A stretch of 64,000 nucleotides of DNA from Candidatus Woesearchaeota archaeon (GTDB taxonomy: Archaea; Nanobdellota; Nanobdellia; SCGC-AAA011-G17; VGLX01): positions 20,985 through 84,984 of the forward strand of contig CAYSAF010000002.1 of assembly GCA_964428965.1 (NCBI GenBank), read 5' to 3'. This document shows positions 29,245-49,529 of the stretch, piece after piece. Numbering within the stretch: the stretch's first letter is position 1; each line of letters starts with the position of its first letter. Both the position numbers and the translations under genes were made by a program. Under the pieces are notes generated by a model, which saw only the letters and a program-made list of their open reading frames with translations, did no database searches and was not told where the DNA came from.

Positions 29245-31530
29245 TTATTCCACAGTTATGTCGGTCAGGCTTGTTCCCTTGACGAGTGCTTCTGTGCCTG
29301 ATAAGGTATAGTCCTTGTAGTTGGCTAAAACCTTAGCAGCCCTTCTGGTGTCTAAGGCATTGGTACCGGCTATCAGCAGAGCAACCTTGTTGCCGTTCGC
29401 TGCCAGCTTGATTAAACCTTCGCCTTCCTTCAAACTCCAGCCTTCGCACGTCATTCCAAATCCGGGAACAGCTGTAACAGCATCGTTTGCGCAAGGTCCA
29501 CCCACGACGATCAAGTTGTACATGGCCTCTGAACCTTTTATTTCAGAGTCCAACTTTGTCACAGGCGTAATGCTTGCGACAGTACATGTCTCGCCGGCTG
29601 CGCTTGTTGTAGCAGCACTGCCCTTTATGACGATGTTGGCCTGCACCTGGTCCGCAGGTATGTCAAACACAACCTCATCTGAGGCACCGTGAGCCTTCGG
29701 ATCCCTTATTATGATCCCGTACCTTGACAGGTGGTCCTCGTCCTTCGTACCTATAGACATCTCTGTGTAGCCGTCACCAGCTGTGTTTCCATCAGTGGTT
29801 TCGTTGTAACCAAACCATCTCAACTCTCCAGCCTCTTCTGAGGAAACTGTGCTTCCCAAAGCTGCAAAGGAGTAATCAGCTGCTGCATGCGTCCACCACA
29901 TAGATACGTTGTCGTTGTAATACGGCATGTCCGAACTTATGTAAGGCGATAAGGTTACGTTGATTCCGTTTTCTGCAGTTGTACCCTCAACAAGTATAGG
30001 CATGTCAGTACTCTTTGTGTTGTCGTAGTTAACCTCAGCTATGGTGTTAGAGGTTCCTGATACATTACCTATACAACCTGCCATCTGAGTCTTACTGTTG
30101 GTATCCTTGTAGTAAACCCCTAGTGATGCTGCTTCACCGTTAGTTGCGTTCATACATCTCCACAGCCAAATCTTATCCGACTTGGGGTTGGATATTGTGC
30201 CGTTGGCATCAAGATATCCACTACCAGTCTTGATCTGGAATCCTTCAGCCTGGTTCGTGTGGGCGTACACAGCAGATACTGATGTGGATGAACCACCGTC
30301 AGCTTGACTCAAGTCTGCGTTGGTGTCCAACTCAAACGTGTACGTCTTGTAGGCTGTGTCCTTAACAGTCAGACTGTCAAGACATATACTAACGTAGCTG
30401 TTTGGCAGTTCGATGCACTCACCAACACCTGGCGGGTTATCCGAATCGTCGTTATAGACGAAATCGTTCTCGATACTTAGGTAAGGACCTGTGAACTCGC
30501 CTGTGGTGTTTGTCGTGGTCGAAGAGTAGTCGTGTAAGCTACCTATGTTCCATACCCAGTTAGGGTCGTCCTTATTCTCACCGATGTAGGCGTCTCCATC
30601 CTTGTAGGTCTGCTGGGCTTCCTTACCCAAGATCAAGGATGCTGACCTCTGAGCCTTAACGGTTTCATAGAACGTTTGATCTACTTTTACTTCAATGCCG
30701 TTAACGACTTTTGCGGTGGAAGACACTACCTCTACAACACCATCAACGTCAACAACGATAGAGCCCCCTTCACCTACGTTCGTCAAGGTAACTTTCTTAC
30801 CCTCTACTTCTACAGAATCTCCTACATCCATGAAGTATTCTGTACCCACATAGGCTGAGAACTTGTTATCGACTGATGTGTCGATCTCGGTTATCTTCAA
30901 GGTCTTACCCAAGAACTTAATCTCCAACGGGTTGGTTGATGTCGTCTTGTTTAACTGGATGGTCTCATCAAATACATAGTAGTACTTGATTGAATCCACG
31001 TCAGCTTCCAGTACAACATCTGTCTGGTAGTCGTCATCGTTACTTGTCAAACTGGTCTGCACTCTTGGGAATTTGCTCGCTTGACCCAGTTCGAGAATTT
31101 CCCTGGTGTCATAAGTTCCACTTTGGAAAGCGATCTCCCCATCCCAGAGAGAATCTATGTCGTCGTCTTCCAGCTCCTGGTCGAAAGTCCTTGAAGCCGC
31201 GTTAGCTATAGGTTCACCAAGAGGGATATCATCGGTATCTCCTCCTGTGACGCTAACAGTTCCACCAGACGCTTTACACTCCTTGGATTCGTATTGCAAG
31301 TTCGTTGCAATATCTACCATACCGAGTGTATCAGATGCTGCTGCGTTGGCACCTACGACTAGCACGTTGCTAGAGTCGTACTTACCGCTTACAACGAATG
31401 GCGACGGATAGTCCTTCAAGTCAAGAGCCATCGCACCGGTCATGGTAGCCCCCAACATTGCCATTCCTGTACCAATAGCAGCAGCCGTCTTAACGGCTTT
31501 CTTAGCTTTCAGTACAAAGCTTTTTTGCAT
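29245..31530 (-). CDS. Large secreted surface protein of 761 aa, S-layer-like, with no C-terminal TM
   Basis: Signal 'MQKSFVLKAKKAVKTAAAIGTGMAMLGATMTGAMA'. Composition is Thr/Ser/Gly/Asp/Asn-rich. A strong SD 'GGAGGTG' lies 8 nt upstream of the ATG, and the gene has its own promoter region. Confidence 0.6.
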   Translation of the reverse strand: MQKSFVLKAKKAVKTAAAIGTGMAMLGATMTGAMALDLKDYPSPFVVSGKYDSSNVLVVGANAAASDTLGMVDIATNLQYESKECKASGGTVSVTGGDTDDIPLGEPIANAASRTFDQELEDDDIDSLWDGEIAFQSGTYDTREILELGQASKFPRVQTSLTSNDDDYQTDVVLEADVDSIKYYYVFDETIQLNKTTSTNPLEIKFLGKTLKITEIDTSVDNKFSAYVGTEYFMDVGDSVEVEGKKVTLTNVGEGGSIVVDVDGVVEVVSSTAKVVNGIEVKVDQTFYETVKAQRSASLILGKEAQQTYKDGDAYIGENKDDPNWVWNIGSLHDYSSTTTNTTGEFTGPYLSIENDFVYNDDSDNPPGVGECIELPNSYVSICLDSLTVKDTAYKTYTFELDTNADLSQADGGSSTSVSAVYAHTNQAEGFQIKTGSGYLDANGTISNPKSDKIWLWRCMNATNGEAASLGVYYKDTNSKTQMAGCIGNVSGTSNTIAEVNYDNTKSTDMPILVEGTTAENGINVTLSPYISSDMPYYNDNVSMWWTHAAADYSFAALGSTVSSEEAGELRWFGYNETTDGNTAGDGYTEMSIGTKDEDHLSRYGIIIRDPKAHGASDEVVFDIPADQVQANIVIKGSAATTSAAGETCTVASITPVTKLDSEIKGSEAMYNLIVVGGPCANDAVTAVPGFGMTCEGWSLKEGEGLIKLAANGNKVALLIAGTNALDTRRAAKVLANYKDYTLSGTEALVKGTSLTDITVE

Positions 31531-31811: not shown

Positions 31812-32273
31812 TTACTTTAGACAGACCAAAAGGTTGATCAGCAGGGAGGTCTTACCAAACCTGACGTTAGCATGAGCAGCCATCCTCTTAGGCAGGCTGC
31901 AGGAGCCGTCGGAAAGGAAGAGAGAGCTGCCTTCCTTAATCTCAAAAGAGTACTGCCAGCCAGAGTTGTAAGACCTGGTAACGTTGGCAACCACCTCTTT
32001 TATGTAAGCTTTACAGTCAGGATTACCGCAGTAATCCCTGTTTCCAGAAAACATGTAACAAGTAACAATAACATCTTCCAGGGTATCAGACAAATCCTCA
32101 CAAGGGGTAACCTTCATCATGGTGTTAAGAAGATTCGAAACCTCAGCGCTCTGCCTAAGATCAGGCAGAGAGGTATCAACAGGTTTCTGCAAGAAAAAAA
32201 GATAGATAAGACCGCCAAAAATGAACAACACAACTATTACCAAAAGACCTAACATCTCCATCTGAGCCCTCAC
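31812..32273 (-). CDS. Small membrane-anchored exported protein of 153 aa; last gene of the surface operon
   Basis: N-terminal hydrophobic segment 'MLGLLVIVVLFIFGGLIYLFFL'. It is coupled by ATGA overlap to the upstream gene. Confidence 0.5.
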   Translation of the reverse strand: MRAQMEMLGLLVIVVLFIFGGLIYLFFLQKPVDTSLPDLRQSAEVSNLLNTMMKVTPCEDLSDTLEDVIVTCYMFSGNRDYCGNPDCKAYIKEVVANVTRSYNSGWQYSFEIKEGSSLFLSDGSCSLPKRMAAHANVRFGKTSLLINLLVCLK

Positions 32274-32836
32274 GAGTACACCTCCACCGACAACACACCA
32301 ACAGCAAACCTCCTAGTAAGAGGGTGATAAAGAGAGACGGGAGTCTTAACTATGTCCTTGGCAGCGTAGCTTGGCTTGGGATGATGATAAACAGTCCAGT
32401 TACTACAAGTCTCAGGATAGTCAATGTGATTAAAAGCATCAAGGTCACACTCGCCGCTATTATTGGCATTCTCACTAAGCTTACCAGGCAAGGGATATAT
32501 CTGCTCAAAACGAATAACCTTAAAACCATAAGTACCCACATAGGCAGCCTTGTTAGAGCTGACCAACTTCTTGAAAGCCTGAAGCTTAACAACATCAACA
32601 TAATCCTTGGAATCACCCTTAATGCTGTACTGAACCTCAGGCAACGAATCTATTATGTTAACAAAAACAGTAGCCTTAACATCAGAAATACGCTTACCTG
32701 CTTCCCCAATACCAGCCAGGGACACATTATAATATATAGCGAGACCTATGACAATAAGGACAACTATAACAACAACCACCATAATAGCTTCTATGAATTC
32801 AAGATCACCCCTCTTAGAAGAGAACCACGCAGGCAC
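32270..32836 (-). CDS. Pilin-like protein with a putative class III signal (KRGD/hydrophobic). The start is tentatively the GTG at 32836; the ORF extends to 32965, and an internal ATG at 32782 is an alternative.
   Basis: 'SSKRGDLEFIEAIMVVVVIVVLIVIGLAIYY' has a basic-Gly motif followed by a hydrophobic helix, as in archaeal prepilins. Confidence 0.4.
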   Translation of the reverse strand: MPAWFSSKRGDLEFIEAIMVVVVIVVLIVIGLAIYYNVSLAGIGEAGKRISDVKATVFVNIIDSLPEVQYSIKGDSKDYVDVVKLQAFKKLVSSNKAAYVGTYGFKVIRFEQIYPLPGKLSENANNSGECDLDAFNHIDYPETCSNWTVYHHPKPSYAAKDIVKTPVSLYHPLTRRFAVGVLSVEVYS

Positions 32837-33899
32837 CTTTACCTCCCAACTTTTTATTACTCTCAACAATAAAATCTTTGAACGAATCAAACTTGGCATG
32901 ATCCACATAACCGGGATCAGACTTGGCTGAATCAACCTCGAGCTTGAAACCATCAAGGTTGGCAAGCCGGATCATGTTATAGGAGCAGTCGTTAGTAGAA
33001 TCAAGCAGGTCCTTGGTGTAAAGCATGTTAGCCTTCTCACCATAAAGATTAAGCATAAGGCTTAGACGCTTATAGATCCTTGAAAGCTGACAGTTATAAC
33101 TGTCAAAATCCTCAGCGAGTACTGCACCAAAAAGCATGGGCTTACCCACAAAAAAAGAGTTATCGTCAGGAAAGTCAACAGAGCCGTGACATTCATCATC
33201 TTCCTTATCAGGCTCACAGTCAACATAATCAATTATTACATAACGACCGCTGAAGCCAGAGGGGGGATTGGTCTTGAAAAAAGCAAACTTAACAAAGTCA
33301 TACCTGCCCGAAGCATAAGAAAGCCTGGCCACAACCTGATCCTTTGAAATGCTCTCAACCTCAAAAGACTTTGGAAAGTTCTCATAATGATGCTCGGCAG
33401 GAGTTGTCAAGCTGTCGATGCCCTTAACGAAATCAGCAACATCACCGTCAGAAGGATAGACAAGGTAATACTTAGAACGCCTGTTTGTTAGGAAAAAGAA
33501 GTTGTCAACCTTGAAAGGATAGTACCAGCTCTGAGTCCAAGAGAGAATCTGATTATCCTCAAGCTTGGAAGGAGAAAAAATAACCTTCTTGGCATCAAAG
33601 TTATAAGTGCCTGAAGAAAACTTACCACAGGTAGGACCCTTGCCAAAACTCATCTTAACAGGAGAAGGCCAAGCCTCATTGGGAATTGGCTGGCTCTGAT
33701 CTTCAGAAACCATCAAAGCATTAAGTGAATCGTCAATCATGAAACCCAGCTCTGTAGTAGAAACCTCCTCCTTAGACTTACCCATGTCCATAGCAAACTT
33801 CACAAAAAAAAGAAGTATTATAGCGCCGACAACTAAAGAAAATATGTACTTGAATACAGGAGCAGCCAAGCCCTTACGAAGCTTTAGAAACCTCAACAT
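32814..33899 (-). CDS. Pilin-like or class III signal protein of 361 aa
   Basis: N-terminal 'MLRFLKLRKGLAAPVFKYIFSLVVGAIILLFFV', an RKG motif followed by a hydrophobic segment. Confidence 0.45.
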   Translation of the reverse strand: MLRFLKLRKGLAAPVFKYIFSLVVGAIILLFFVKFAMDMGKSKEEVSTTELGFMIDDSLNALMVSEDQSQPIPNEAWPSPVKMSFGKGPTCGKFSSGTYNFDAKKVIFSPSKLEDNQILSWTQSWYYPFKVDNFFFLTNRRSKYYLVYPSDGDVADFVKGIDSLTTPAEHHYENFPKSFEVESISKDQVVARLSYASGRYDFVKFAFFKTNPPSGFSGRYVIIDYVDCEPDKEDDECHGSVDFPDDNSFFVGKPMLFGAVLAEDFDSYNCQLSRIYKRLSLMLNLYGEKANMLYTKDLLDSTNDCSYNMIRLANLDGFKLEVDSAKSDPGYVDHAKFDSFKDFIVESNKKLGGKGACVVLF

Positions 33900-34359
33900 A
33901 ATTACCCCTAGAAGTCAAAACTATAGGCATGTTATTCCTAACACACAAAGGATTCTGAGAGGCAGGAGCTCTCAGGCAAGGAACGTAATAAGCCAAAACG
34001 CTCTTTGAAGAGTAAACAAAAACGTTGGAATTATTCCTCAAAGCAACAAAAGTGGGATTGTAATTTGACGGCTTATCAGTAGAACCAAAAAAGGGAATCT
34101 CGTGACTTGCGAAACAGACGTAGTTGAAGTCACAGGGAAGGTTAACAATAAACCTGTTACTGCTACCGACTTCGAAATAACAATAACGCTGAACATCCTT
34201 CTTCAAACCTGTCACGTAGTCAGCAACCTCGACATCACAAGAAACCTTCACAAGCTTGTAAACCTGGTAGACCCCCCAAGTGAGAATCAAAGCGCCAACA
34301 ACCAAAGCAAAAATCATCACCAAAGGCTGACCGAGCAACTGACCTCTTTTTTTCATCAA
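33874..34359 (-). CDS. Pilin-like protein of 161 aa with a class III (prepilin-type) signal
   Basis: N-terminal 'MMKKRGQLLGQPLVMIFALVVGALILTW'. The KRGQ motif followed by a hydrophobic helix is characteristic of archaeal type IV pilins. Confidence 0.55.
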   Translation of the reverse strand: MMKKRGQLLGQPLVMIFALVVGALILTWGVYQVYKLVKVSCDVEVADYVTGLKKDVQRYCYFEVGSSNRFIVNLPCDFNYVCFASHEIPFFGSTDKPSNYNPTFVALRNNSNVFVYSSKSVLAYYVPCLRAPASQNPLCVRNNMPIVLTSRGNYVEVSKAS

Positions 34360-34395
34360 AGAAAAAGAGAAGAAGGGAACTTATAAAATTTTTGA

Positions 34396-37300
34396 TTACA
34401 CGTAGACAGTGAACTTGGCCTCGTTCTTGAAAACATCGATGCAACTTATGTAATAAACAGGATTTGCTATGCTCAACTCGTGGATTAGCGAGTCTGTACC
34501 TGTCATCTGTGTGCCAGAGTCATAACTTATCGTTGAGTTCGTTGAATACTGACAGTTCGAAGGCTCGTTAAGCTCGAGATGCAACACAGTGCCTTCAGAA
34601 TATATGTAGATAATCTTCGGAGAGTCCAAGTCAATATCAACCTTGAACGTCATGTTTGAATAAGCCTCGTTACCTGCAATGTCACGACACATAACATAGT
34701 AGAAGTAGTCGCCCTTATCCAAAATAAGAGGCTGCCTGTGAATTGTTGAATTGGTCTCGAAGAACTCAATCATGCTCAGGAAAGGAACGTCAGAGTTAGC
34801 ATATCCACACCTTGCTTCACCCTCCTTAGCCCCACCACTGGTGATAACCCTCAACTCGGCATCGGACTGGTACAAAGTACCTGAAGGACCTGTGCTATCA
34901 ATCATCAAGATCTTGGTTGAACGCAAGCTGAACAAATAACTCTCTGTGTTAACGTTACCCTTCCTGTCCTTACACTTGAAGTAATAATCAGTAACACCTT
35001 CAGAATTGATCAATAGGTCTGTCTTGCACTCGTACAAACCATAATAAATTGAGGACAGGCTGAAGCCTGAATCAGCACAGGTAAACTTGCGGTCCATCAA
35101 ATCAAACTCGGTGTCGTTGAAATTCCAACGACAGTCTGCAGGCTCGTTAGTGTAAACGCTGAATGAAGTTGAATTAACATTGTAAGGAGCGTAAGCGCCG
35201 TTCTCAACACTTGTACGCTCAATAACAGGAGCTGTCAGGTCAGGAGCAGGCTCGATGCTGAACCTGATGAAATAATCACGGCTGTTCTTATTGCCAGAGG
35301 CATCCTTGCACCTTATGTAAATGTTGTAATTGCCGCCGTTTGTCAGCTTCAAGGCTTCAGGAGTTGTCAAGTCAGAGGGCAGAGTTAAAGTAATCTGGTG
35401 GTCATAAGTGTAGACTGCTTCTCCGAAGAAAGCTGTCTTCTGCTCAAAGTCAACAGAATGTTCAGAGCCGAACTTGCACTGAGCAGGCTCGTCAGTTTTT
35501 AAACCCAAAGTGATTGCCTGGAACGGCTTCAGCTTCTGATTAAGTTTGAAACCCTTATTACCCTCATCTGTAATCTCTGTGATTGTGAAACCTTTAGCGA
35601 GGACATCCTTCCAAGGGGTTATGATAGGAGAGTTAACATCATTCGGGTGCATGTTGATACACTTCTCCTCAGAAGTACCCAGATTGACCAAAGAACAGAG
35701 CTTGCCGAGAGACTTACACCTGTACTCGGAACAGGGCTTGTTGTTATTATCTTCATTACACTTCTCACAATCCTTACCACCCGCGGGAGCCTGCCAGACA
35801 TCACAAGTCATATGATAAGTCTCTGATTTGTCCTGAGCGAGGAAAACATCAACGAACTGGTAGATTGTGTAGAGCCACATCAATGTGTTGAGGGCGCCCA
35901 TAACATTGGACATAGCACTACTACTTTGAGTGGTTATTGTCTGGCCTTCAGGTACTTTCATCCCTTTTTCTGTAACAACTTTATACATACCTTCATCGGT
36001 GGTACTTGGGACAATATCTTTTGATTTAGCAAGAAGTTCTTTGTCGCCTTTAAAAAATTTCAATGCTTCTCCCTCAGTTAAAGGTGTATTCTTACCTACA
36101 GTACTTCCACTTGAAAAAGTCCTTACGCCATAAGTAGCACCCCAATTAGAAATTATATTGCCAGCAGGTTCCTTGCCAAGCTTGAACAACCAACCAAAAG
36201 CATTACCTATAGTTGATAGCCCTCCAAACATACCTTCTGTAAACTTACCCTTAGTCCAGCCAGTAGCAAAACCAGTATAAACACCGGTAGCAACCATCAC
36301 ACCAAGAGGAAGACCTGCCTGCTTGAAAAACTCGGTAAACTTACCACCGCCCAAGATACCAGAAGACTCTTCATCCTTCTCCTTCTTAGAAGGCTGGGAG
36401 AGAGTTTTCCAATCACCAACCTCTGACTCCTTCAACTTGCTACCCTTAAACCACTTCCTCTCAGCAGAAGCAGTGTTAGCATAACCATCAGTTGTTATCT
36501 TACCCAATATGTTGAAATAGGCACCACAGTCACCCATCGACTTACAAAGGGTGTTACCAGCAACGATCCAAGAATGCTCGGTACAATGACAGTTCTTCAC
36601 ACACTCCCAATCATCAACTGCAAAAATCCTTGACATACCACCCCGATGCCAGCTAACAGTGCACTCCTGATTAGCCTGGGTGCAAACGCTGGAACCAGAA
36701 CCGCCGCCAACACCAGTAATAGTGCTTGTGCCAGCAGCTGTAGAAACAGCAGCACCTGTAGGTGTAGTAGTCTTTGAAGAGGTCTCCTCAGACGAGAGCT
36801 TGGTTGCAAGCTTCTGCCCTGTACCAGTCTTTGTGGTTGAGGAAAGCTGCTCAGGCTCCCTATTCCAGAAAGCAAAACCAGGGGGAACGTCAGGAACACA
36901 AACTCCGGTAATGCCAACAGCAATACCTGCCTTCAAAAAGAAACAATCACGAACAGCAACGTCTTCACAGCACTTCTTAACACAACAATCAGCGCCCTTG
37001 CCAGAGCAATCACCTCCGCAAGACCTTTGAGAGTTACAAGCAAAACAATCCTCCCATCTGCTATCACGACAGGCAGCCTCAACATAATCACCGGTAACGC
37101 CGAAAGACTCGAAGGCAGTCTTAGCAGGCTCGTTATGCATTATGCCCTGAACACAAATCTCTTCCCTGAAATCACGACAGGGCTCAACCATCTCCTCACC
37201 GTTAACACAGATGTGACGGAAATGCCTTGAGCCGACAGCATCACGAGCATGGCCTGGAAAGGTATCATAAATACACCAGGATTCGCCATTCTTCTTTTTT

Positions 37301-38211
37301 GTACCTGAGTTAGAGCTGACATCATCCTTGTAAACAGTATTGCAGTTAACATCACGACAGGTAAATTCGCCAAACTTCATGTTGACGTTCTTGGCAGGAC
37401 CGCAAAGGGTTCCGGTGCTGTAATCACAATTACCGCAGTTAGGATCGTTAACAGTCTTGGACTTACAACTCTGCTCCTTGGAAAGAACATAGCCGTTGTT
37501 GTAAGAAGAAACCTTATCAGCGTTGTAAATATTCTCTTGGTTGCCGCAACTGTCAAACCAGAAAACCTCATCCTGACCTGGCAGACAACCAGTCTTCTGC
37601 TGCTTGGCACAGTCACACTTCAACTTGTCGTTACTGCACAGCATTCCGGGATAGAAGCCGTCGCCAGTCTCGTTGCCCACCTGAACAGCGGCAGCAGTTG
37701 TGCAAGAACCTCTCATAGTAAAGCTGCACTCAGTACCTGAAACACAACAACCCTTGTCCTCAGCCCTTGACTTGGCTATGCACTCCTGCTCTGTAAGAAT
37801 GTTCTCGTCAAAAGTCATGGTAACGTTAGGGTATAAAGAAGTTTCAGCCTTGCAACGAACTTGGGTGACGAAAAAAGCCTCGTTACCTATTATGCAACAG
37901 CCCTTGCTGCATTGCTGAATGCCACAGTTCTCATCAGTATCCCAGGTGTTGCCATACATGGAGTTACACTCAGCCTTGGGAACGTTCTTAAAACATCTTC
38001 CCTCATCGCTGCTATAACAGCAGCCTACCTTGCAGAAAGAGGTCTGCTCACAGGTGATAGAAGCAACCTTTGAACCTGCAGCGCAGTTAGACTCATCGGT
38101 GTAAAGGCAATACTCATTCGCTTTTGTTTTCTCACAACAAACGTTGAAAGCGGAAACAAAACTAATCAAAATAAGAAATACTAAAGGGATGATACACTTC
38201 TTAAAATTCAT
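34396..38211 (-). CDS. Giant Cys-rich secreted protein 1 of 1271 aa. It has a signal peptide, an N-terminal Cys-rich module, Gly/Thr-rich linkers, a central hydrophobic segment and C-terminal repeated beta-type domains.
   Basis: 'MNFKKCIIPLVFLILISFVSAFNVCCEKTKANEYCLYTD'. Conserved blocks are 'CRDFREEICVQG', 'KSMGDCGAYFNILG', 'YHMTCDVWQAPAGGKDCEKCN', 'CSEYRCKSLGKLCS', 'NDVNSPIITPW' and 'YNIYIRCKDASGNKN'. The start overlaps the upstream pilin-like stop in an ATGA arrangement. Confidence 0.7.
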   Translation of the reverse strand: MNFKKCIIPLVFLILISFVSAFNVCCEKTKANEYCLYTDESNCAAGSKVASITCEQTSFCKVGCCYSSDEGRCFKNVPKAECNSMYGNTWDTDENCGIQQCSKGCCIIGNEAFFVTQVRCKAETSLYPNVTMTFDENILTEQECIAKSRAEDKGCCVSGTECSFTMRGSCTTAAAVQVGNETGDGFYPGMLCSNDKLKCDCAKQQKTGCLPGQDEVFWFDSCGNQENIYNADKVSSYNNGYVLSKEQSCKSKTVNDPNCGNCDYSTGTLCGPAKNVNMKFGEFTCRDVNCNTVYKDDVSSNSGTKKKNGESWCIYDTFPGHARDAVGSRHFRHICVNGEEMVEPCRDFREEICVQGIMHNEPAKTAFESFGVTGDYVEAACRDSRWEDCFACNSQRSCGGDCSGKGADCCVKKCCEDVAVRDCFFLKAGIAVGITGVCVPDVPPGFAFWNREPEQLSSTTKTGTGQKLATKLSSEETSSKTTTPTGAAVSTAAGTSTITGVGGGSGSSVCTQANQECTVSWHRGGMSRIFAVDDWECVKNCHCTEHSWIVAGNTLCKSMGDCGAYFNILGKITTDGYANTASAERKWFKGSKLKESEVGDWKTLSQPSKKEKDEESSGILGGGKFTEFFKQAGLPLGVMVATGVYTGFATGWTKGKFTEGMFGGLSTIGNAFGWLFKLGKEPAGNIISNWGATYGVRTFSSGSTVGKNTPLTEGEALKFFKGDKELLAKSKDIVPSTTDEGMYKVVTEKGMKVPEGQTITTQSSSAMSNVMGALNTLMWLYTIYQFVDVFLAQDKSETYHMTCDVWQAPAGGKDCEKCNEDNNNKPCSEYRCKSLGKLCSLVNLGTSEEKCINMHPNDVNSPIITPWKDVLAKGFTITEITDEGNKGFKLNQKLKPFQAITLGLKTDEPAQCKFGSEHSVDFEQKTAFFGEAVYTYDHQITLTLPSDLTTPEALKLTNGGNYNIYIRCKDASGNKNSRDYFIRFSIEPAPDLTAPVIERTSVENGAYAPYNVNSTSFSVYTNEPADCRWNFNDTEFDLMDRKFTCADSGFSLSSIYYGLYECKTDLLINSEGVTDYYFKCKDRKGNVNTESYLFSLRSTKILMIDSTGPSGTLYQSDAELRVITSGGAKEGEARCGYANSDVPFLSMIEFFETNSTIHRQPLILDKGDYFYYVMCRDIAGNEAYSNMTFKVDIDLDSPKIIYIYSEGTVLHLELNEPSNCQYSTNSTISYDSGTQMTGTDSLIHELSIANPVYYISCIDVFKNEAKFTVYV

Positions 38212-38990
38212 GGTACCAAAGTTGATTCTCCTTGAACGAAAAACTGGAAGACGTAATCGCTATCATACTTGCTCAGTATGTACAGCTTGTCAGGATATGG
38301 TTTCTTCTTCTCAATCCTAACCTCACCCCTCTTAGCAAGCATGTAAATCATCTGATCAAACTCGCCGAATTCGGTTTCGTAATCTAAAATATTTTGCGAG
38401 GCATCGTACAAGTAACCTAGCGGGTATTCAAAAGTCTGGGTGAACTCCTGAGCAGAAACCTCAGCAGAAGATTTAGTAGACCTAAGCCTTATCGGGTAGG
38501 TAACCTTAACTATCACCATTTCAGAACCTATGCTGGTCTCAACTGTCCATTTCTTTGGTGTTATTATCTCAAAACTGCCGAACTTCTTGAAGCTCTGAAC
38601 GTCGATACAAGTCTGCAAACTGAAGTCTATGGCAGCGTTAAGCTGACGCTCCATGTCAGACCTTGTAAGCATGCGATTGATGCAACGAGGGGTTCCAGTC
38701 ATAGTGTAACAGAGGTAACTGATGGTAGTATCGTTGTAAAGCCTGAAAGTGTCAGGAGGGGTTGACAGATAACCGCCTTGTAAACCGATCTGCCTGATAG
38801 GTTGATCAGAAACCTTGCCTATGCACTTAAGCACGTGCTCATTGATATCATCAAGCTCAGAGTTCAAGTCACCAACGCTTGGGTTGAGAAGAAATATGTT
38901 TGTCCTAGAATAGAGCAACAAAAAAGCAAGAATAACTATAACAATACCGAGAATAACGAAAATAGTAACCTGACCCCTTTTTTCCATCAA
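38208..38990 (-). CDS. Pilin-like protein of 260 aa with a class III signal
   Basis: N-terminal 'MMEKRGQVTIFVILGIVIVILAFLLLYS'. Confidence 0.55.
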   Translation of the reverse strand: MMEKRGQVTIFVILGIVIVILAFLLLYSRTNIFLLNPSVGDLNSELDDINEHVLKCIGKVSDQPIRQIGLQGGYLSTPPDTFRLYNDTTISYLCYTMTGTPRCINRMLTRSDMERQLNAAIDFSLQTCIDVQSFKKFGSFEIITPKKWTVETSIGSEMVIVKVTYPIRLRSTKSSAEVSAQEFTQTFEYPLGYLYDASQNILDYETEFGEFDQMIYMLAKRGEVRIEKKKPYPDKLYILSKYDSDYVFQFFVQGESTLVP

Positions 38991-39032
38991 ACCACCTTCC
39001 TAAATTTTAGTAACCTAATTATATAAAACTTT

Positions 39033-42000
39033 CTACAAATAAACAACTATCTCACCCATCGTATTGTTAAAATTATCAACGCAGTTTATGTAATAATGAT
39101 CAGCGTAGGCAGGGGCGGTAAGCTCTGCAGTACCAGAATTACCCATCTTAGTTCCGTTACCGTAAGTGAACGAAGAGCTTGAATGCTCGCAGATTGAGGG
39201 CTCATCGAGAGTTAGGTGCAAGGTTGAGCCGTCAGAGTAGATGTAAACTATATTAGGAGGGGTGGTGTCAGCATCGATTCTGAAGTTTATCGTTGTTGAA
39301 GCCTCGTTACTAGCAGAATCTCTACACTTAACATAGTAAGTGTAATCTCCCATCGCAAGATTGAGCAATGGCTGCTTGTGGCTAGCTGAATTAGTGTTAA
39401 AGAACTCAATCATTTGCTCAAACCCAACCTGGGAGGTGCTGAAACTGCAAACAGCAACGCCGTCCTGAGAGCCGCCAGCGGTAGTAACCTCAAGAGTAGG
39501 GCTGTTGGTAGTGTACAAAGTACCTGAAGGGGCAGCATAAACAATGCCCAACTCATTACTAACTATCAAGCTGTAAGGGGTGCTCTCCTGATTCTTGTTA
39601 TCCTTCAAGTCCATGCACCTGAAATAATAAGTATTAGTACCTTTTGAAACGTTCAACATGGCATAACAATCGTAATGGGTTATGAAAGTTGTGTTGTGGT
39701 ATTCCAAGTCGCAAGAAGCAGTCTCTTTCATGCTGTCGTAACCCTCATCCCGGGCTGACCACTTACAAGTTGCAGGCTCGTTCAGCAAAATATTAACTGT
39801 AGCCAGGGTCATATTCGATGCTATGTAAGAACCGTCCTCGGGATTGAAGCCATCAATCACTGGAGGGGTGATGTCAGGAAGATTCTCAGTTGAAAGCTTA
39901 ATGGTGTACTCACGAGTGTTAGCGTTACCAGAAGCGTCCTTACACCTGACATAAAACTCGTAATCTACACCACCAATTAAATTCAAGGTGATGTTGTGTT
40001 CAGTATCAAAGTAACCCTCACCAAGGTAGTTAGACATCTCATCAAATGTTTTAGTGTGCTCCTCAGATATCTTGCACTGAGCAAGCTCATCAGTCTTGAT
40101 ACCGAAGCTGATCAAGGTGAATGGCTTTATTTTCTGAGATATGGAAAAGCCGTACTCCAAACTGCTTAGAGAATAACCAGGGGTAAGAGCCTCAGGCCAA
40201 GGGGTGATAACAGGAGAGTTGACGTCGTGAGTGGTCTTGCTGAAACAAGAAACTCTTGAAGAACCCTCATTCTCTGGAATGAACTCGCAAAGCTTGCCGA
40301 GAGACTTGCACTTGTACTCTGTGCAGTCATCAAAGCTTAAAACATTTAACTTCTCATCACTCCTGCACTTGTCACAATCCTTGCCACCCTCTGGTGCTTG
40401 CCAAGGCCTGCATTGAGTATTCACATAATAAGTTTTTGTTTCTGCGGAAAAGATGAAGTATAAAACTACAGCTATAACTACAACAGCAACGGCAGCTATG
40501 GCAAATACACCTGCTGTTGTTAAACCTAAACTTGTAGTTGGAATTGCAGTCCCAGTAGTAGATGTTACTGTACCCACCCCTGTAAGAGCACTAAGTGCAG
40601 AACCAACTCCTGTGCCTGCAACAGCTCCTGCAACTCCGGCAACAGTAGCACCAAGTAAACCTGCGTTAATAGCCATAATAGCAACTATTCCAACAACCCC
40701 TGCATACATAGCATAATTCTGTATCGGACTTTTATACTCACTATCAATAGCTTGCATCATCTTTTCAAAATTTTCTTTCAGCATTTGCATACCACCGAAG
40801 ACACCGTACTTAGCATAGTCAGTCCAAGCACCTTTGCTTATCTTCCTGGGAGCTTTCTTGCTGCTTCCAGTAACAGAAAAACCTGCTTCGCTCTTCACAC
40901 CAAGAATGTTGATGTTAGCACCACAGTCACCCATAGACTTACACAGCTTATTCATATCATCGATGTACTTAGAAGTCTCGCAATGACAGTTTTGAACGCA
41001 CTTCCAACTTGAGAACTTAGAACTTTTAACGTAAACAACCTGACAAGACTGATCAGCACTCTCACAATTGCCCCGGTCTTCCCAAAACTTAAAACCGACT
41101 GGAACCGTTGAAATATTTGACTTAACAGGAGAATCATAAATCTCATTCTTAACGCACTGTGATTCAGAATAATCCTTAAGCTTCCCCTGGATGCAAACTT
41201 CTTCCCTGAAATCACGACAAGGCTCTACAATTTCCTCACCATTAACACACATGTGCTTGAAATGCCTAGTTCCAATCCTATCTATATAATCACCAGTGCC
41301 TGACTCGTAAACACACCAGGACTCGCCATTCTTTCTAAGGCTGCCCATGTCAGCATCGTGAACATTCTTTTCATCCTTGTAAGTGGAGTCGCAGTTAACG
41401 CTCTTGCAAACAAACTCATCGTTGATGTTCTTGCCGCACTTAGTGCCAGCAGCATAATCACAATCCTGGTCTTTATCCTCACGGTTGCCACAGCTGTCAA
41501 ACCAGTAAACATCATCATCATAACAACCCTTAGTGTAATGCCTATCACAATTACAGATGGAGATGTCAGAACAGAACTTGTTGTGGTTGAACTGACCGCT
41601 GTCAGCAGAGCACAAACCCCTTGTTGTAAATAAGCATGCATCACTCCTCTGACAACAACCCTCGTCGCCAGAACGACAGATGTCAGCACATTCCTTTTCA
41701 GAGGCAGCATCCCTGAAATCCTTAGTCAGGTCTGGAAAATCCTTAAGGAGATAATCACATTTCTTCTCGTTAACGTAGGAACAGGCACCAGCTATGATAC
41801 AACAACCGTTCCTGCAGTCAGAGTTCCCACAATCAGCGTCGGGGGTGAACTTACCAGCCATAGCGTTGCATTTAGCAAGAGGTGTATTCTTGTAACAGTT
41901 ACCCTCAACCTGATTCTGACAACAACCAAGCTGACAGTAAGAGGTCTGATCGCAAGAGGTTGCAGCGTTGTCAGACCTGATATTCAAGTCACACTTAGAA

Positions 42001-42155
42001 GCATCTGTGTAAAGACAATACTCGCCTGTGTTAGTTTTTTCACAGCAACGTTTATCAGCAGCAGAGACCGGGTTGATCAAGTAAATAGAGAAGATAGCAC
42101 AAATGAGAACGGAAATCATAAAACTAGCTTTACCTCTCAAAAACCTCTTTTTCAT
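39033..42155 (-). CDS. Giant Cys-rich secreted protein 2, about 1040 aa from the internal ATG at 42155. The ORF extends to 42431, but the extension looks non-coding. Paralogue of 34396..38211.
   Basis: 'MKKRFLRGKASFMISVLICAIFSIYLINPVSAADKRCCEKTNTGEYCLYTD'. It shares the blocks 'CRDFREEVCIQG', 'KSMGDCGANINILG', 'CRPWQAPEGGKDCDKC', 'CTEYKCKSLGKLCE', 'HDVNSPVITPW' and 'YEFYVRCKDASGNAN'. There is a central TM hairpin 'AGVVGIVAIMAINAGLLGATVAGVAGAVAG...AGVFAIAAVAVVVIAVVLYFIF'. Confidence 0.7.
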   Translation of the reverse strand: MKKRFLRGKASFMISVLICAIFSIYLINPVSAADKRCCEKTNTGEYCLYTDASKCDLNIRSDNAATSCDQTSYCQLGCCQNQVEGNCYKNTPLAKCNAMAGKFTPDADCGNSDCRNGCCIIAGACSYVNEKKCDYLLKDFPDLTKDFRDAASEKECADICRSGDEGCCQRSDACLFTTRGLCSADSGQFNHNKFCSDISICNCDRHYTKGCYDDDVYWFDSCGNREDKDQDCDYAAGTKCGKNINDEFVCKSVNCDSTYKDEKNVHDADMGSLRKNGESWCVYESGTGDYIDRIGTRHFKHMCVNGEEIVEPCRDFREEVCIQGKLKDYSESQCVKNEIYDSPVKSNISTVPVGFKFWEDRGNCESADQSCQVVYVKSSKFSSWKCVQNCHCETSKYIDDMNKLCKSMGDCGANINILGVKSEAGFSVTGSSKKAPRKISKGAWTDYAKYGVFGGMQMLKENFEKMMQAIDSEYKSPIQNYAMYAGVVGIVAIMAINAGLLGATVAGVAGAVAGTGVGSALSALTGVGTVTSTTGTAIPTTSLGLTTAGVFAIAAVAVVVIAVVLYFIFSAETKTYYVNTQCRPWQAPEGGKDCDKCRSDEKLNVLSFDDCTEYKCKSLGKLCEFIPENEGSSRVSCFSKTTHDVNSPVITPWPEALTPGYSLSSLEYGFSISQKIKPFTLISFGIKTDELAQCKISEEHTKTFDEMSNYLGEGYFDTEHNITLNLIGGVDYEFYVRCKDASGNANTREYTIKLSTENLPDITPPVIDGFNPEDGSYIASNMTLATVNILLNEPATCKWSARDEGYDSMKETASCDLEYHNTTFITHYDCYAMLNVSKGTNTYYFRCMDLKDNKNQESTPYSLIVSNELGIVYAAPSGTLYTTNSPTLEVTTAGGSQDGVAVCSFSTSQVGFEQMIEFFNTNSASHKQPLLNLAMGDYTYYVKCRDSASNEASTTINFRIDADTTPPNIVYIYSDGSTLHLTLDEPSICEHSSSSFTYGNGTKMGNSGTAELTAPAYADHYYINCVDNFNNTMGEIVVYL

Positions 42156-42171
42156 ATCACAAAAAGGGGAA

Positions 42172-42196
42172 GGGAGATATAAAAAACTTTCTACAA
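42172..42196 (-). promoter_or_regulatory. Putative BRE/TATA promoter of giant gene 2. It contains a motif shared with the region upstream of the 38990 gene.
   Basis: The minus strand reads 'TTTGTAGAAAGTTTTTTATATC' about 20-40 nt upstream of the ATG at 42155. A near-identical 'TTTGTAGAAAGTTTTATATAAT' lies at 39008-39032, upstream of the pilin-like gene starting at 38990. Confidence 0.4.
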
Positions 42197-42301
42197 AGAA
42201 AATAAAAGAAAAAATTTCAAACGGTTCACCTTCGATAAAAAAAGTAAAAGCGAAACGTTTAAAAATAATGGGAGCGATTAATAACAGTCTAATAAAAAAA
42301 A

Positions 42302-43426
42302 TTGAAAATGGAATTGGAATCAAACAACGAAGAACCTCCGCCTTCAGAGGCACAAACCATAGTTGAAGAGTACAGCGGAAAGGTGGTGGACAAGAATTCT
42401 TGGCAATACCTTCTGAAAAACAGTTTGGCAACAGCTAGGCAGATAGCGGAAAAAGCAGGGCTGAAAGAAGAGGAAGTAAGAGCCGTGATCAAGAAATATC
42501 CCGCAAAGATAAACCCTTACTATCTCTCATTGATCAAAGAAAAAGATGACCCCATATGGAAGCAATGCGTACCAACAATAGCCGAGCTTGAAGACGAGGT
42601 CGGCCTTGAAGACCCGTTAAGAGAGGAGGGAGAGGTTCCAGGAATAACACACAAGTATTCTGATAGGGTTTTATTCATAATATCAAACCAGTGCGCGATG
42701 TACTGCAGGTTCTGCACAAGAAAAAGGAAGGTTGGGGACCCGAACAAGGAGATAAAGTGGAGCGACCTGCAAAAAGGAATAGACTACATAAAAACACACA
42801 CGGAAATAAGAGACGTGATACTGTCAGGAGGAGACCCCCTGCTGATAGAAACAAAAAAGCTGGAAAAAATAATAAAGCTCGTCAGGGCAGTAAAGCATGT
42901 TGAGATAATAAGGATAGGAACAAGAGTTCCTTGCGTGCTGCCACAGAGGATAGACCAAGAGCTTTGCGAGATGCTAAAAAAGTACCACCCAGTATACCTT
43001 AATACACATTTCAACCATCCCAATGAGATAACAGAAGAATCAAAAAAGGCTTGCGAAATGTTAGCAGATGCGGGAATACAGCTGGGCAATCAAACAGTTC
43101 TGCTTAAAGGGGTTAACGACAATCCTGAAATCCTGAAAGAATTATTCAGAAAACTCCTCACAATAAGAGTGAAGCCTTATTACCTGTACCAAGCTGACAT
43201 GACAAAGGGAACGAACCACTTCAGGACAAAGGTGGAAGAAGGAATAAAAATAATAGGAGAGGTAGTGGGTTATACATCAGGGCTTTGCGTGCCCCACTAT
43301 GTCGTGGACGGAGCAGGAGGAAAAACTCCATTACTACCACAATACTTACAATACATAGACGATGAAATTGTGATACTAAAGAACTATCAAGGAAAGAAGT
43401 ACGTATACAAGCAGCCACAAGACTAA
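42302..43426 (+). CDS. kamA: Lysine 2,3-aminomutase (radical SAM, KamA/AblA family)
   Basis: 'ISNQCAMYCRFCTRKR' carries CxxxCxxC. 'DVILSGGDPL' and 'PYYLYQADMTKGTNHFR' are characteristic KamA blocks. Confidence 0.85.
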   Translation: MKMELESNNEEPPPSEAQTIVEEYSGKVVDKNSWQYLLKNSLATARQIAEKAGLKEEEVRAVIKKYPAKINPYYLSLIKEKDDPIWKQCVPTIAELEDEVGLEDPLREEGEVPGITHKYSDRVLFIISNQCAMYCRFCTRKRKVGDPNKEIKWSDLQKGIDYIKTHTEIRDVILSGGDPLLIETKKLEKIIKLVRAVKHVEIIRIGTRVPCVLPQRIDQELCEMLKKYHPVYLNTHFNHPNEITEESKKACEMLADAGIQLGNQTVLLKGVNDNPEILKELFRKLLTIRVKPYYLYQADMTKGTNHFRTKVEEGIKIIGEVVGYTSGLCVPHYVVDGAGGKTPLLPQYLQYIDDEIVILKNYQGKKYVYKQPQD

Positions 43427-43917
43427 ATCCTTTCTAACTTAAAGATTATATCTTTGCCTTTCCTTTTACTCTCTTTAAAACCAAGCTTCTTGTGCACTGC
43501 TATTGAAGGCTCGTTAAAGTAGAGGATTGGAGCAGTAACTTTCTTCAAATCAAAATTCTTGAATCCGTAATCTAGCAAAAGTTCCAAAGCTTCAGTGGCA
43601 TAACCTTTATTTCTGTATTCAGACTCACCAATCATGATAGCACACTCAGCAGTCTTGCCGGGCTTAATATCACGGAGATCAGCATCGCCAATAGGCTTAG
43701 AAGTCTTCTTATCAAAAATTAAGTAGTGAGCCATGTCATCAGCTTCCTCAATCTCGTCACGGATTTTGGCAACATCATCAAGAGTTAAGCCTCTATCTGT
43801 TTCAGTCATCCTGAGAAGGTATTCATCCTGCAACCATCCATGATATTTACTAACATATTCAGGAGTGAAACACCCCATTTTTACAAGTTTGCCCTCGAGA
43901 TTAGGAAGGTTTTTCAT
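43423..43917 (-). CDS. GNAT family N-acetyltransferase
   Basis: 'YRNKGYATEALELLLDYGFKNFDLKKVTAPILYFNEPSIAVHKKLGFK' is acetyl-CoA-binding motif A/B-like. Confidence 0.65.
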   Translation of the reverse strand: MKNLPNLEGKLVKMGCFTPEYVSKYHGWLQDEYLLRMTETDRGLTLDDVAKIRDEIEEADDMAHYLIFDKKTSKPIGDADLRDIKPGKTAECAIMIGESEYRNKGYATEALELLLDYGFKNFDLKKVTAPILYFNEPSIAVHKKLGFKESKRKGKDIIFKLERI

Positions 43918-45627: not shown

Positions 45628-45651
45628 CCCCTGAACAACTCGTAAGATTAG

Positions 45652-46798: not shown

Positions 46799-46799
46799 C

Positions 46800-49526: not shown

Positions 49527-49529
49527 AAA

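What the first reader, a model, noticed from the sequence alone, without database searches (positions are those of the whole stretch)
31812..42431. Operon of about 10.6 kb alternating two giant paralogous Cys-rich secreted proteins with pilin-like (class III signal) proteins: a candidate undescribed surface or attachment apparatus
On the minus strand the gene order is giant2 (39033..42155), pilin-like (38208..38990), giant1 (34396..38211), pilin-like (33874..34359), pilin-like (32814..33899), pilin-like (32270..32836) and a small anchored protein (31812..32273). Several junctions are ATGA start/stop overlaps, for example 38211/38208 and 32273/32270, which implies co-translation. Three of the small proteins start with 'M(M)(K/E)KRGQ' or 'RKG' followed by a hydrophobic helix of about 20 aa. 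That is the hallmark of archaeal type IV pilin (class III) signal peptides processed by a PibD/FlaK-type peptidase. The giants have cleavable Sec-type signals, dozens of cysteines in CC/CxC arrangements, conserved blocks ('CRDFREE(I/V)C(V/I)QG', 'KSMGDCGA', 'W QAP(A/E)GGKDC(E/D)KC', 'C(S/T)EY(R/K)CKSLGKLC') and C-terminal tandem beta-rich repeats. No pilus ATPase, platform protein or prepilin peptidase is in the window. The arrangement therefore suggests accessory adhesin-pilin modules displayed on a pilus that is assembled elsewhere, or a self-contained filament. I cannot place the giants in any family I recognise.
Basis: partly seen in the sequence, partly recalled or inferred. Interest (0 to 1): 0.85.

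Follow-up and report, generated by a model that had tools for sequence, protein, structure and literature searches.

The report
Conserved pilin-like operon with giant surface proteins
A seven-gene operon, conserved across hundreds of uncultured Woesearchaeota and Pacearchaeota (tiny, probably host-dependent DPANN archaea), encodes five pilin-like proteins and two giant cysteine-rich surface proteins that no database names, and it is probably an undescribed cell-surface or attachment apparatus.

Summary
On the minus strand, 31812-42155 holds seven tightly packed genes: giant2, pilA-like, giant1, then four small genes. The giants are paralogs (34-39% identity) with ordinary Sec signals, 61 and 71 cysteines and four C-terminal Ig-like domains. 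Their N-terminal domain matches no Pfam or NCBIfam model, no solved-structure sequence and no listed solved fold.

All five small proteins, not three, carry a short leader ending in [KR][GA]Q followed by a hydrophobic helix. This holds in 235 of 254 scored proteins (orthologs plus the window's own). The pilA-like model (pLDDT 87.7) weakly resembles minor pilins and pseudopilins.

The gene order is kept in about 80 species-level genomes of Woese-, Pace- and Nanoarchaeia. A homolog of the neighbouring S-layer gene lies downstream in 36 of 39 loci. No pilus ATPase, platform protein or peptidase was found in the window, and no pilus-type ATPase within 10 kb in any locus.

Best reading (about 0.45): an envelope-embedded complex related to type IV filaments, made of pilin-like subunits holding two giant ectoproteins for contact with a host or substrate. 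It is a new variant of a known kind. Function is inferred, not shown.

The parts
39033..42155 (-). giant2: a 1040-aa Cys-rich surface protein. It has a Sec signal (cleavage about VSA|AD), an N-terminal beta-rich Cys domain (about 34-430), a central TM hairpin (about 481-513 and 540-576), a Cys-knot block (about 571-640) and four Ig-like domains (about 650-1037).
   Evidence: ORF. Paralogy. 61 Cys and hydrophobic segments. AF2 model with pLDDT 74.5. Only Ig-like fold matches. No strong Pfam or NCBIfam hit. Hairpin present in 15/15 giant2-type orthologs.
38208..38990 (-). pilA-like: a 260-aa protein with a class-III-type signal (MMEKRG|QVTIFVILGIV...). It always sits immediately upstream of a giant gene and is translationally coupled to giant1 by an ATGA overlap.
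34396..38211 (-). giant1: a 1271-aa Cys-rich paralog. It has a Sec signal (VSA|FN), the same domain plan as giant2 plus a Ser/Thr/Gly-rich linker (about 450-510). Its central segments are only moderately hydrophobic (628-652 and 772-792).
   Evidence: 292 relatives, all 'hypothetical' except one LysM-domain annotation. Sec-type N-termini across the family.
33874..34359 (-). pilB-like: a 161-aa protein with a class-III-type signal (MMKKRG|QLLGQPLVMIFALVVG).
   Evidence: Motif present in 39/42 scored sequences. N-terminal region homologous to pilC (hhalign 98%).
32814..33899 (-). pilC-like: a 361-aa protein with a class-III-type signal (..LRKG|LAAPVFKYIFSLVVGAIIL).
   Evidence: Motif present in 42/49 scored sequences. 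No significant match to any solved-structure sequence.
32270..32836 (-). pilD-like: a 188-aa protein (GTG start) with a class-III-type signal (..SSKRG|DLEFIEAIMVVVV) and a conserved Glu at +6.
   Evidence: Motif present in 40/45 scored sequences, with Glu at +6 in 39/40. Weak, non-significant profile matches to the N-terminal helices of bacterial type IV pilins. Homologous to 'small' (hhalign 95%).
31812..32273 (-). Gln at +1 and Glu at +3 are conserved.
   Evidence: Motif present in 29/30 scored sequences, Q at +1 in 29/29 and E at +3 in 26/29.
42156..42200 (-). Probable operon promoter: an A/T-rich TATA-like element (TTTTTTATAT, about 42177-42186) roughly 25 nt upstream of the giant2 ATG. 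This would imply a leaderless or very short-leader mRNA.
   Evidence: Read directly from the sequence. Inference only; no archaeal promoter tool was available.
29245..31530 (-). Neighbouring S-layer protein gene (761 aa). It is a conserved downstream neighbour, separated by 281 bp with T-runs and an A/T-rich stretch that could serve as its own promoter. Probably functionally linked, but not part of the operon.
   Evidence: Pfam S_layer_C at 6.2e-17. An S-layer homolog lies downstream in 36/39 loci, with a median gap of about 300 bp. Intergenic sequence.

Best explanation
The operon encodes a cell-envelope apparatus of the type IV filament kind that is specific to Woese-, Pace- and Nanoarchaeia.

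**Shown**
- Five proteins carry conserved prepilin-type (class III) N-termini.
- Two paralogous giant proteins are exported by Sec. They carry a Cys-rich head domain of unknown fold and a four-domain Ig-like stalk.
- A pilA-like gene always precedes, and is translationally coupled to, a giant gene.
- The whole set is conserved and sits next to the S-layer gene.

**Inferred**
- The cell's class III signal peptidase, encoded elsewhere, cuts after the G or A.
- The five subunits pack through their N-terminal helices into a short filament, pseudopilus or tip-like bundle, driven by a pilus/archaellum-type ATPase and platform protein encoded elsewhere.
- Each giant is held by its pilA-like partner. 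Giant2 is additionally held by its central membrane hairpin.
- The Ig stalks therefore carry the Cys-rich heads through or beyond the S-layer, where they contact a host cell or a substrate.

The count of four or five small pilin-like subunits plus a large non-pilin partner parallels the bacterial minor-pilin/PilY1 and GspH-K priming and tip complexes.
For: - **Class III motif.** [KR]-[GA]-Q followed by a hydrophobic helix at the extreme N-terminus in pilA 85/88, pilB 39/42, pilC 42/49, pilD 40/45 and small 29/30 scored sequences. Position -1 is only G or A.
- **Shared N-terminal module.** The five families share it while their C-terminal domains differ, as pilins do (hhalign 88-98% for several pairs).
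- **Giants.**
  - Sec signal peptides.
  - A tandem Ig array resembling cell-adhesion molecules, a grappling-hook protein and an S-layer protein.
  - The cysteines are invariant across the family.
- **Operon and synteny.**
  - Overlapping stops and starts.
  - The same gene order in about 80 species-level genomes down to about 30% identity.
  - The pilA-giant pair occurs as a repeated unit in Pacearchaeota.
- **Precedent.**
  - Archaeal type IV pilus loci with several minor pilins, two large adhesin-like proteins and S-layer-like proteins (PMC4858521).
  - DPANN pilins that escape sequence detection (PMC6393860).
  - Woesearchaeota transcribe archaellin genes, so a class III peptidase is plausible in the lineage (PMC11606122).
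Against: - No pilus-type ATPase (Walker-motif scan, with a Pfam check of the single hit) and no recurrent polytopic membrane protein were found within 10 kb of any of 81 loci. No ATPase, platform protein or prepilin peptidase was found in the 64-kb window either. A24 peptidases were screened in the loci only by a crude motif. Whether these genomes have them at all could not be checked here.
- None of 130 pilin-like orthologs hits a Pfam pilin family.
- The central TM hairpin of giant2-type proteins (15/15) does not fit a protein carried away on a pilus tip.
- The giants and pilA are fairly conserved (about 39-42% identity against 55% for PCNA in the same genomes). That is more than is usual for host-specific adhesins.
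- No major pilin can be named.
Confidence: 0.45

Rival explanations
1. A static envelope scaffold or S-layer anchoring complex. The pilin-like proteins, processed or not, stay in the membrane as N-terminal helix anchors, as proposed for the Sulfolobus class-III-signal solute-binding proteins (the 'bindosome'). Together with the membrane-embedded giants they form pillars that space, anchor or locally open the S-layer. Adhesion is not the primary role.
For: - A homolog of the S-layer gene lies directly downstream in 36/39 loci.
- The window's S-layer protein has no hydrophobic segment passing the TM threshold and so needs a partner to be anchored.
- Giant2-type proteins have a TM hairpin in 15/15 cases.
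- Giants and pilA are conserved and appear as one locus per contig, as expected for a core envelope part.
- A role for Ig-rich proteins in priming the S-layer for filaments has been proposed (bioRxiv 10.64898/2026.04.22.720090).
- One fold match is the Deinococcus HPI S-layer protein.
Against: - The S-layer gene appears to be a separate transcription unit, with a gap of about 300 bp containing T-runs.
- The wider neighbourhood is also conserved: PCNA lies in the 10-kb flanks of 36 loci. Adjacency may therefore partly reflect general synteny.
- Five different conserved prepilin-type leaders are hard to explain if no processing or assembly occurs.
- The giants show no match to S-layer families.
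Confidence: 0.27
2. A host-membrane contact or fusion device. The giants act like fusogens or penetration proteins. A disulfide-stabilised Cys-rich ectodomain and a central Gly-rich hydrophobic segment insert into the partner cell's membrane, and the pilin-like subunits supply extension or retraction force. The result would be the cytoplasmic bridges suspected for DPANN episymbionts.
For: - The central region is Gly-rich and variably hydrophobic (0-3 segments pass a TM threshold).
- It is predicted with low confidence (pLDDT 30-50).
- It is flanked by invariant Cys-rich blocks.
- The family is restricted to a lineage thought to depend on hosts.
Against: - In giant2 the hydrophobic segments look like an ordinary helical hairpin, with a conserved second helix.
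- There is no experimental hint, and no cultured Woesearchaeota.
Confidence: 0.1
3. Metal or redox function. The dozens of cysteines (CC and CxC) bind metals or Fe-S clusters for extracellular redox chemistry or metal scavenging, and the small proteins are unrelated membrane anchors.
For: 61 and 71 cysteines per protein, many invariant. The hosts are probably anaerobes, in which extracellular disulfides are less expected.
Against: - No haem-binding or ferredoxin-type domain was found by Pfam.
- The cysteines sit in beta-hairpin modules typical of disulfide-knotted ectodomains.
- This reading does not explain five conserved prepilin-type proteins.
Confidence: 0.05

Closest known systems
Archaeal Epd-type ('system 1') type IV pilus loci of Methanococcales, Thermococcales and DPANN (Makarova et al. 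2016, PMC4858521; bioRxiv 10.64898/2026.04.22.720090)
   Same: Several different class-III-signal minor pilins, with Gln at +1 as in EppA-type substrates (from my own knowledge). Two large secreted adhesin-like proteins. Frequent association with S-layer-like genes.
   Different: The Epd locus carries its own ATPase, two platform genes and a dedicated peptidase, and its large proteins contain DUF2341 (PilY-like). Here none of these is present. The giants are a different Cys-rich family with a TM hairpin, and the small proteins hit no known pilin family.
Bacterial minor-pilin/PilY1 operon (fimU-pilVWXY1E) and the T2SS pseudopilus tip complex GspH-I-J-K
   Same: Four to five small pilin-like subunits are co-transcribed with a large non-pilin partner. 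Some subunits carry a conserved Glu near the mature N-terminus (pilD, small) and others lack it (pilA, pilB, pilC). The pilA model weakly resembles PilX and GspK.
   Different: Different domain of life and no sequence homology. PilY1 has a beta-propeller and a vWA domain and no membrane hairpin. There are two giants, each paired with its own pilA-like gene.
Sulfolobus bindosome (solute-binding proteins with class III signals)
   Same: Class-III-signal proteins that may stay close to the cell surface under the S-layer rather than forming long pili.
   Different: No solute-binding domain and no ABC transporter are present here, and no Bas-type assembly genes are nearby.
DPANN 'dark matter' cluster cls.004306 (NEQ255) of Makarova et al. 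2019 (PMC6393860)
   Same: It is described as a secreted protein found in 43 of 67 DPANN genomes, often encoded next to S-layer-like Ig-domain proteins. The context is similar.
   Different: This is a lead only.

Membership tests
Archaeal type IV pilin-like (class III signal peptide) proteins | A short, positively charged leader ending in [KR]-[GA], immediately followed by a hydrophobic helix of about 20 residues | tested here: met
   Met in all five small protein families: 235 of 254 scored proteins (orthologs plus the window's own). Position -1 is only G or A, -2 only K or R, and +1 mostly Q.
Archaeal type IV pilin-like (class III signal peptide) proteins | Cleavage by an A24-family prepilin peptidase (PibD, FlaK or EppA) | not testable with these tools
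   No peptidase gene was found in the window, and a crude GxGD-type motif scan found none in the 10-kb flanks of the 81 loci. The rest of these genomes could not be read.
Archaeal type IV pilin-like (class III signal peptide) proteins | Pilin fold: an extended N-terminal helix packed on a beta-sheet | tested here: inconclusive
Archaeal type IV pilin-like (class III signal peptide) proteins | Sequence match to a curated pilin family (for example Pfam archaeal pilin N-terminal or class III signal families) | tested here: not met
   No archaeal pilin family among the Pfam hits for the window proteins or among the 25 families listed (of 55 with any hit) for 130 orthologs. The only pilus-named hits there, T4SS_pilin and TcpS, are single-member and weak. 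NCBIfam also gave none.
Complete type IV filament system | A secretion ATPase (T2SSE family) and a platform protein (T2SSF/TadC/ArlJ) in the genome | not testable with these tools
   Absent from the 64-kb window (Pfam). A Walker-motif scan of the 10-kb flanks of all 81 loci found no pilus-type ATPase: the single hit was SRP54/FtsY. No polytopic protein recurred there either. Whole genomes could not be searched.
PilY1-type pilus tip adhesins | DUF2341, a vWA domain or the C-terminal PilY1 beta-propeller | tested here: not met
   No such Pfam hit at E <= 0.1 for either giant. The giant2 model shows no propeller, and fold matches are to Ig-like domains only.
Archaeal S-layer proteins (S_layer_N / S_layer_C) | Match to S-layer family models | tested here: not met
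   The giants have no S-layer hit. The neighbouring gene 29245-31530 does (6.2e-17).
Bindosome-type class III solute-binding proteins | A solute-binding domain after the class III signal, with a linked ABC transporter | tested here: not met
   No solute-binding protein or ABC transporter domain was found in the operon or the window.

The most novel reading that the evidence does not exclude
The operon builds a lineage-specific organelle not yet seen in any archaeon. It would be a short pseudopilus-like shaft of five pilin-like subunits, rooted in the membrane together with the hairpin-anchored giants. The shaft pierces the S-layer and presents disulfide-knotted Cys-rich heads that recognise, and possibly breach, the envelope of the host cell. 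That would make it the long-sought attachment device of Woese- and Pacearchaeota.
Probability: 0.2. Interest if true: 0.85.

Novelty: new variant of a known kind. Interest (0 to 1): 0.66.

Why it matters
Woesearchaeota and Pacearchaeota are among the most widespread uncultured archaea. They are thought to live attached to other cells, but no attachment structure is known for them. This operon is a concrete and nearly universal candidate:

- seven co-transcribed surface genes next to the S-layer gene, all but one of whose listed database relatives are named only 'hypothetical';
- a new protein family of more than 1000 clusters;
- five pilin-like families that sequence models miss.

It gives targets for metaproteomics, cryo-ET labelling and complex prediction. 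It also adds a machinery-detached, membrane-rooted variant to the type IV filament repertoire.

Tried and rejected
- **Sequence family searches.** Pfam and NCBIfam scans of all seven proteins gave only sub-threshold Ig-like hits (Big_13, Y_Y_Y, DUF4625) in the C-termini of the giants.
- **Profile searches against solved-structure sequences.** Nothing significant for the giants, pilA, pilC or pilD. The 10lk 'lipoprotein' hit (E 0.027) is a low-complexity helix match and was rejected.
- **Contig look-up.** An exact look-up of the window's own giant1 (P0001) failed.
- **Viral origin.** No relative was found in IMG/VR contigs.
- **Nearby machinery.** Regex scans for Walker-type secretion ATPases, A24 motifs and polytopic membrane proteins in 81 loci found nothing recurrent. 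The single hit was SRP54/FtsY.
- **N-glycosylation.** Sequons are not enriched in the operon proteins.
- **Literature.** Seven full-text searches found no description of this operon or of the giant family.
- **Hevein-like reading.** I considered a hevein-like (chitin-binding) reading of the repeated 'GCC-x6-8-C-x7-9-C' modules. I dropped it because no chitin-binding family appeared among the Pfam hits at E <= 0.1. It is a pattern resemblance only.

Full report
**1. What is in the sequence**

The minus strand between 31812 and 42155 carries seven consecutive ORFs:

| Gene | Coordinates | Length |
|---|---|---|
| giant2 | 39033-42155 | 1040 aa from the ATG |
| pilA-like | 38208-38990 | 260 aa |
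| giant1 | 34396-38211 | 1271 aa |
| pilB-like | 33874-34359 | 161 aa |
| pilC-like | 32814-33899 | 361 aa |
| pilD-like | 32270-32836 | 188 aa |
| small | 31812-32273 | 153 aa |

The listed ORF 39033-42431 merely extends giant2 upstream to a TTG.

- **Junctions.** They are tight.
  - pilA/giant1 is an ATGA overlap.
  - pilD/small is a GTGA overlap.
  - pilB/pilC and pilC/pilD overlap by 26 and 23 nt.
  - The other two gaps are about 40 nt.
- **Flanking signals.**
  - An A/T-rich TATA-like element lies about 25 nt upstream of the giant2 ATG.
  - T-runs follow the last gene.
  - This fits a single seven-gene transcription unit.
- **Upstream neighbour.** A lysine-2,3-aminomutase-like gene is divergently transcribed there.
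- **Downstream neighbour.** After 281 bp comes an S-layer protein gene (Pfam S_layer_C, 6.2e-17).

**2. The giants**

- **Paralogy.** BLASTP gives 2e-127 over the C-terminal two thirds and 4e-72 over the N-terminal third, at 34-39% identity.
- **Cysteines.** They have 61 and 71 cysteines. Most are invariant in alignments of 26-38 family members.
- **Signal peptides.** The N-termini are ordinary Sec signals with AxA-type cleavage sites 2-5 residues before the first CC. None of the >=900-aa giants among the 120 listed relatives has a [KR][GA]Q leader.
- **AlphaFold2 model of giant2** (38-sequence alignment, pLDDT 74.5, pTM 0.40). In order it shows:
  - four beta-hairpin 'CC' modules and further beta structure (34-430);
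  - a low-confidence helical region (440-570);
  - a small Cys-knot block;
  - four well-predicted Ig-like domains (650-1037, pLDDT about 90).
- **Sequence searches.** Pfam, NCBIfam and a profile search of solved-structure sequences gave only sub-threshold Ig-like hits.
  - Giant2 has two strongly hydrophobic central segments (about 481-513 and 540-576).
  - All 15 analysable giant2-type orthologs have both. The second helix, just before the conserved 'C.PW.AP.GG' block, has a median Kyte-Doolittle score of 2.76.
  - In giant1-type proteins the equivalent segments are borderline: median 1.6, and 1.16-1.25 in this window.
  - Giant2 is therefore probably rooted in the producer's own membrane by a helical hairpin, with both large domains outside.

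**3. The small proteins**

Comparison with orthologs shows it in all five families. A leader of about 4-10 residues ends in [KR]-[GA] and is followed at once by a hydrophobic helix.

| Family | Sequences with the motif |
|---|---|
| pilA | 85/88 |
| pilB | 39/42 |
| pilC | 42/49 |
| pilD | 40/45 |
| small | 29/30 |

- **Motif positions.**
  - Position -1 is only G or A and -2 only K or R.
  - Position +1 is Q in 83/85, 25/39, 13/42, 28/40 and 29/29 respectively.
  - pilD has Glu at +6 in 39/40 and small has Glu at +3 in 26/29.
- **How well this fits.** It is the recognition pattern of archaeal prepilin peptidases. Gln at +1 is typical of EppA-type substrates (from my knowledge of Szabo et al. 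2007; not re-read here).
- **Shared module.** Profile-profile comparison shows the families share this N-terminal module and differ afterwards: pilB-pilC 98%, pilD-small 95%, pilA-pilD 88%. Pilin sets behave this way.
- **pilA model.**
  - The model (pLDDT 87.7) has an N-terminal helix broken at residues 34-37 (4-33 and 38-69), followed by an alpha/beta domain.
- **Counter-evidence.**
  - None of the five window proteins and none of 130 orthologs hits an archaeal pilin family in Pfam.
  - pilD's profile matches to geopilin and PilA helices are not significant.

**4. Distribution and synteny**

- **Family size.**
  - Giant1 has 292 relatives at E <= 1e-3 among the scored candidates. All but one of the named ones are 'hypothetical'. 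They come from Woesearchaeota, Nanoarchaeota/Nanoarchaeia or unclassified archaeal MAGs.
  - An exhaustive search with giant2 found 3324 clusters (50% identity) at E <= 1e-3 and 1300 at E <= 1e-30.
- **Species genomes.** In one-genome-per-species GTDB contigs, at least 504 stretches encode a relative. A genome holds two or more, so this is fewer species. The 79 loci kept are all Woese-, Pace- or Nanoarchaeia, apart from a few records titled only 'archaeon' and one titled 'bacterium'.
- **Gene order.**
  - Wherever the contig is long enough, the order giant2, pilA, giant1, pilB, pilC, pilD, small, S-layer recurs, down to about 30% identity.
  - pilB or small is sometimes missing or undetected.
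  - Pacearchaeota and some others have two or three pilA-giant units.
- **Junctions across loci.** The pilA-to-giant junction has a median of -4 nt.
- **S-layer link.** A homolog of the S-layer gene follows in 36 of 39 loci with enough downstream sequence, after a median of about 300 bp.
- **Caveat on the S-layer link.** PCNA also lies in the 10-kb flanks of 36 loci, so part of the S-layer linkage may reflect general conservation of this genome region.
- **Conservation** (median identity to the window):

| Protein | Median identity |
|---|---|
| PCNA | 55% |
| S-layer | 46% |
| pilA | 42% |
| giant1 | 39% |
| giant2 | 33% |
| other pilin-like proteins | 27-31% |

- **Viral contigs.** None encodes a relative.

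**5. What is missing**

- Pfam scans of most of the larger, non-overlapped ORFs in the window found glycosyltransferases, radical SAM enzymes, PCNA, a ligase and similar genes. They found no T2SSE ATPase, T2SSF/TadC platform protein or A24 peptidase.
- In the 10-kb flanks of 81 loci, motif scans found no secretion ATPase. The single Walker hit is SRP54/FtsY. No polytopic protein recurred there.
- I could not read the rest of these genomes.
- Literature shows that Woesearchaeota transcribe archaellin genes at high level (PMC11606122). It also shows that DPANN genomes carry type IV filament systems whose pilins often escape detection (PMC6393860; bioRxiv 10.64898/2026.04.22.720090). A peptidase and an ATPase elsewhere in the genome are therefore plausible, but not shown.

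**6. Mechanism**

*Shown*
- Five conserved prepilin-type N-termini.
- Two Sec-exported giants with Ig stalks.
- Coupling of pilA and giant genes.
- A membrane hairpin in giant2.
- Strong synteny, including the S-layer gene.

*Inferred best model (confidence about 0.45)*
- The five subunits are cut by a class III peptidase.
- They assemble through their N-terminal helices into a short filament, pseudopilus or tip-like bundle.
- The giants dock on it through their pilA-like partners and, for giant2, through the hairpin.
- The Cys-rich heads are thereby projected through the S-layer to contact a host or substrate.
- The parallel with bacterial minor-pilin/PilY1 and GspH-K complexes is an analogy of organisation, not homology: PilY1-defining domains are absent.

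*Rivals*

| Rival | Confidence | Basis |
|---|---|---|
| Static S-layer anchoring or spacing scaffold | 0.27 | Favoured by the hairpin, the conservation level and the S-layer linkage |
| Host-membrane fusion or penetration device | 0.10 | Rests on the Gly-rich hydrophobic centre; has no fold support |
| Metal or redox role for the cysteines | 0.05 | Cysteine count only |

**7. Comparison with known systems, and novelty**

- **Closest known arrangement.** It is the accessory part of archaeal Epd-type ('system 1') pilus loci: several minor pilins, two large adhesin-like proteins and S-layer-like proteins (PMC4858521).
- **How this locus differs.**
  - It is detached from any machinery genes.
  - Its giants are a new Cys-rich family with a TM hairpin rather than DUF2341 proteins.
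  - Its pilin-like families are unrecognised by curated models.
  - It sits next to the neighbouring S_layer_C-family S-layer gene.
- **Literature.** Seven full-text searches found no description of this operon or family. One untested lead is the DPANN cluster cls.004306/NEQ255, described as a secreted protein next to S-layer-like genes (PMC6393860).
- **Rating.** I rate it a new variant of a known kind.
- **Interest: 0.66.** It is a very widespread, unannotated, coherent surface gene set in a major uncultured lineage whose attachment biology is an open question. Its function remains inferred, and the type IV filament framework itself is well known.

Noticed in passing
window 29245-31530 (-): An S-layer protein gene (Pfam S_layer_C) with no segment passing the hydrophobicity threshold used for TM helices. 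A homolog is conserved directly downstream of the operon in 36/39 related loci. How this S-layer is tethered to the membrane is unknown.
   Followed up: partly
window 26313-28571 (-): A 752-aa protein with an N-terminal signal, a C-terminal TM helix and 31 N-glycosylation sequons (about 13 expected). It is a heavily glycosylated surface protein that could be an S-layer anchor. Homologs occur near the operon in only a few loci.
   Followed up: partly
window 600-24500: A large surface-glycan cluster. It holds four B12-binding radical SAM enzymes, a radical SAM/SPASM enzyme, many GT1, GT2 and GT4 glycosyltransferases, a Wzx/MurJ-like flippase, a PIG-L deacetylase, a PMT_2-type and a YfhO-like membrane protein, and three Anp1-like proteins.
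   Followed up: no
window 44100-50400: GC content falls to 0.28 at 48-50 kb. The region holds a 499-aa protein with no Pfam hit, an Hjc-like resolvase, an ATP-dependent DNA ligase domain protein and an Mrr-like restriction endonuclease. It may be an integrated element or a defence island.
   Followed up: no
window 52452-53201 (-) and loci L001-L080: PCNA lies about 10 kb from the operon here and in the 10-kb flanks of 36 related loci. A much larger neighbourhood than the operon is therefore syntenic in this lineage.
   Followed up: partly
window 42302-43917: A lysine-2,3-aminomutase-like radical SAM gene (LAM_C domain) converges on a GNAT acetyltransferase. This pairing is like the AblA/AblB route to N-epsilon-acetyl-beta-lysine, an osmolyte. 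The same gene sits upstream of the operon in the two closest relatives (L003, L004).
   Followed up: no
window 61505-63980 (-): Two adjacent ORFs of 439 and 408 aa with no Pfam match at E <= 1e-4.
   Followed up: no
loci L045, L046, L054, L058, L064, L065, L071 (Pace-type): In Pacearchaeota-type loci the unit 'pilA-like + giant' is repeated two or three times. The last giant often appears as two ORFs of about 520 and 700-880 aa, which is either a split gene or a frameshift in the assemblies.
   Followed up: no
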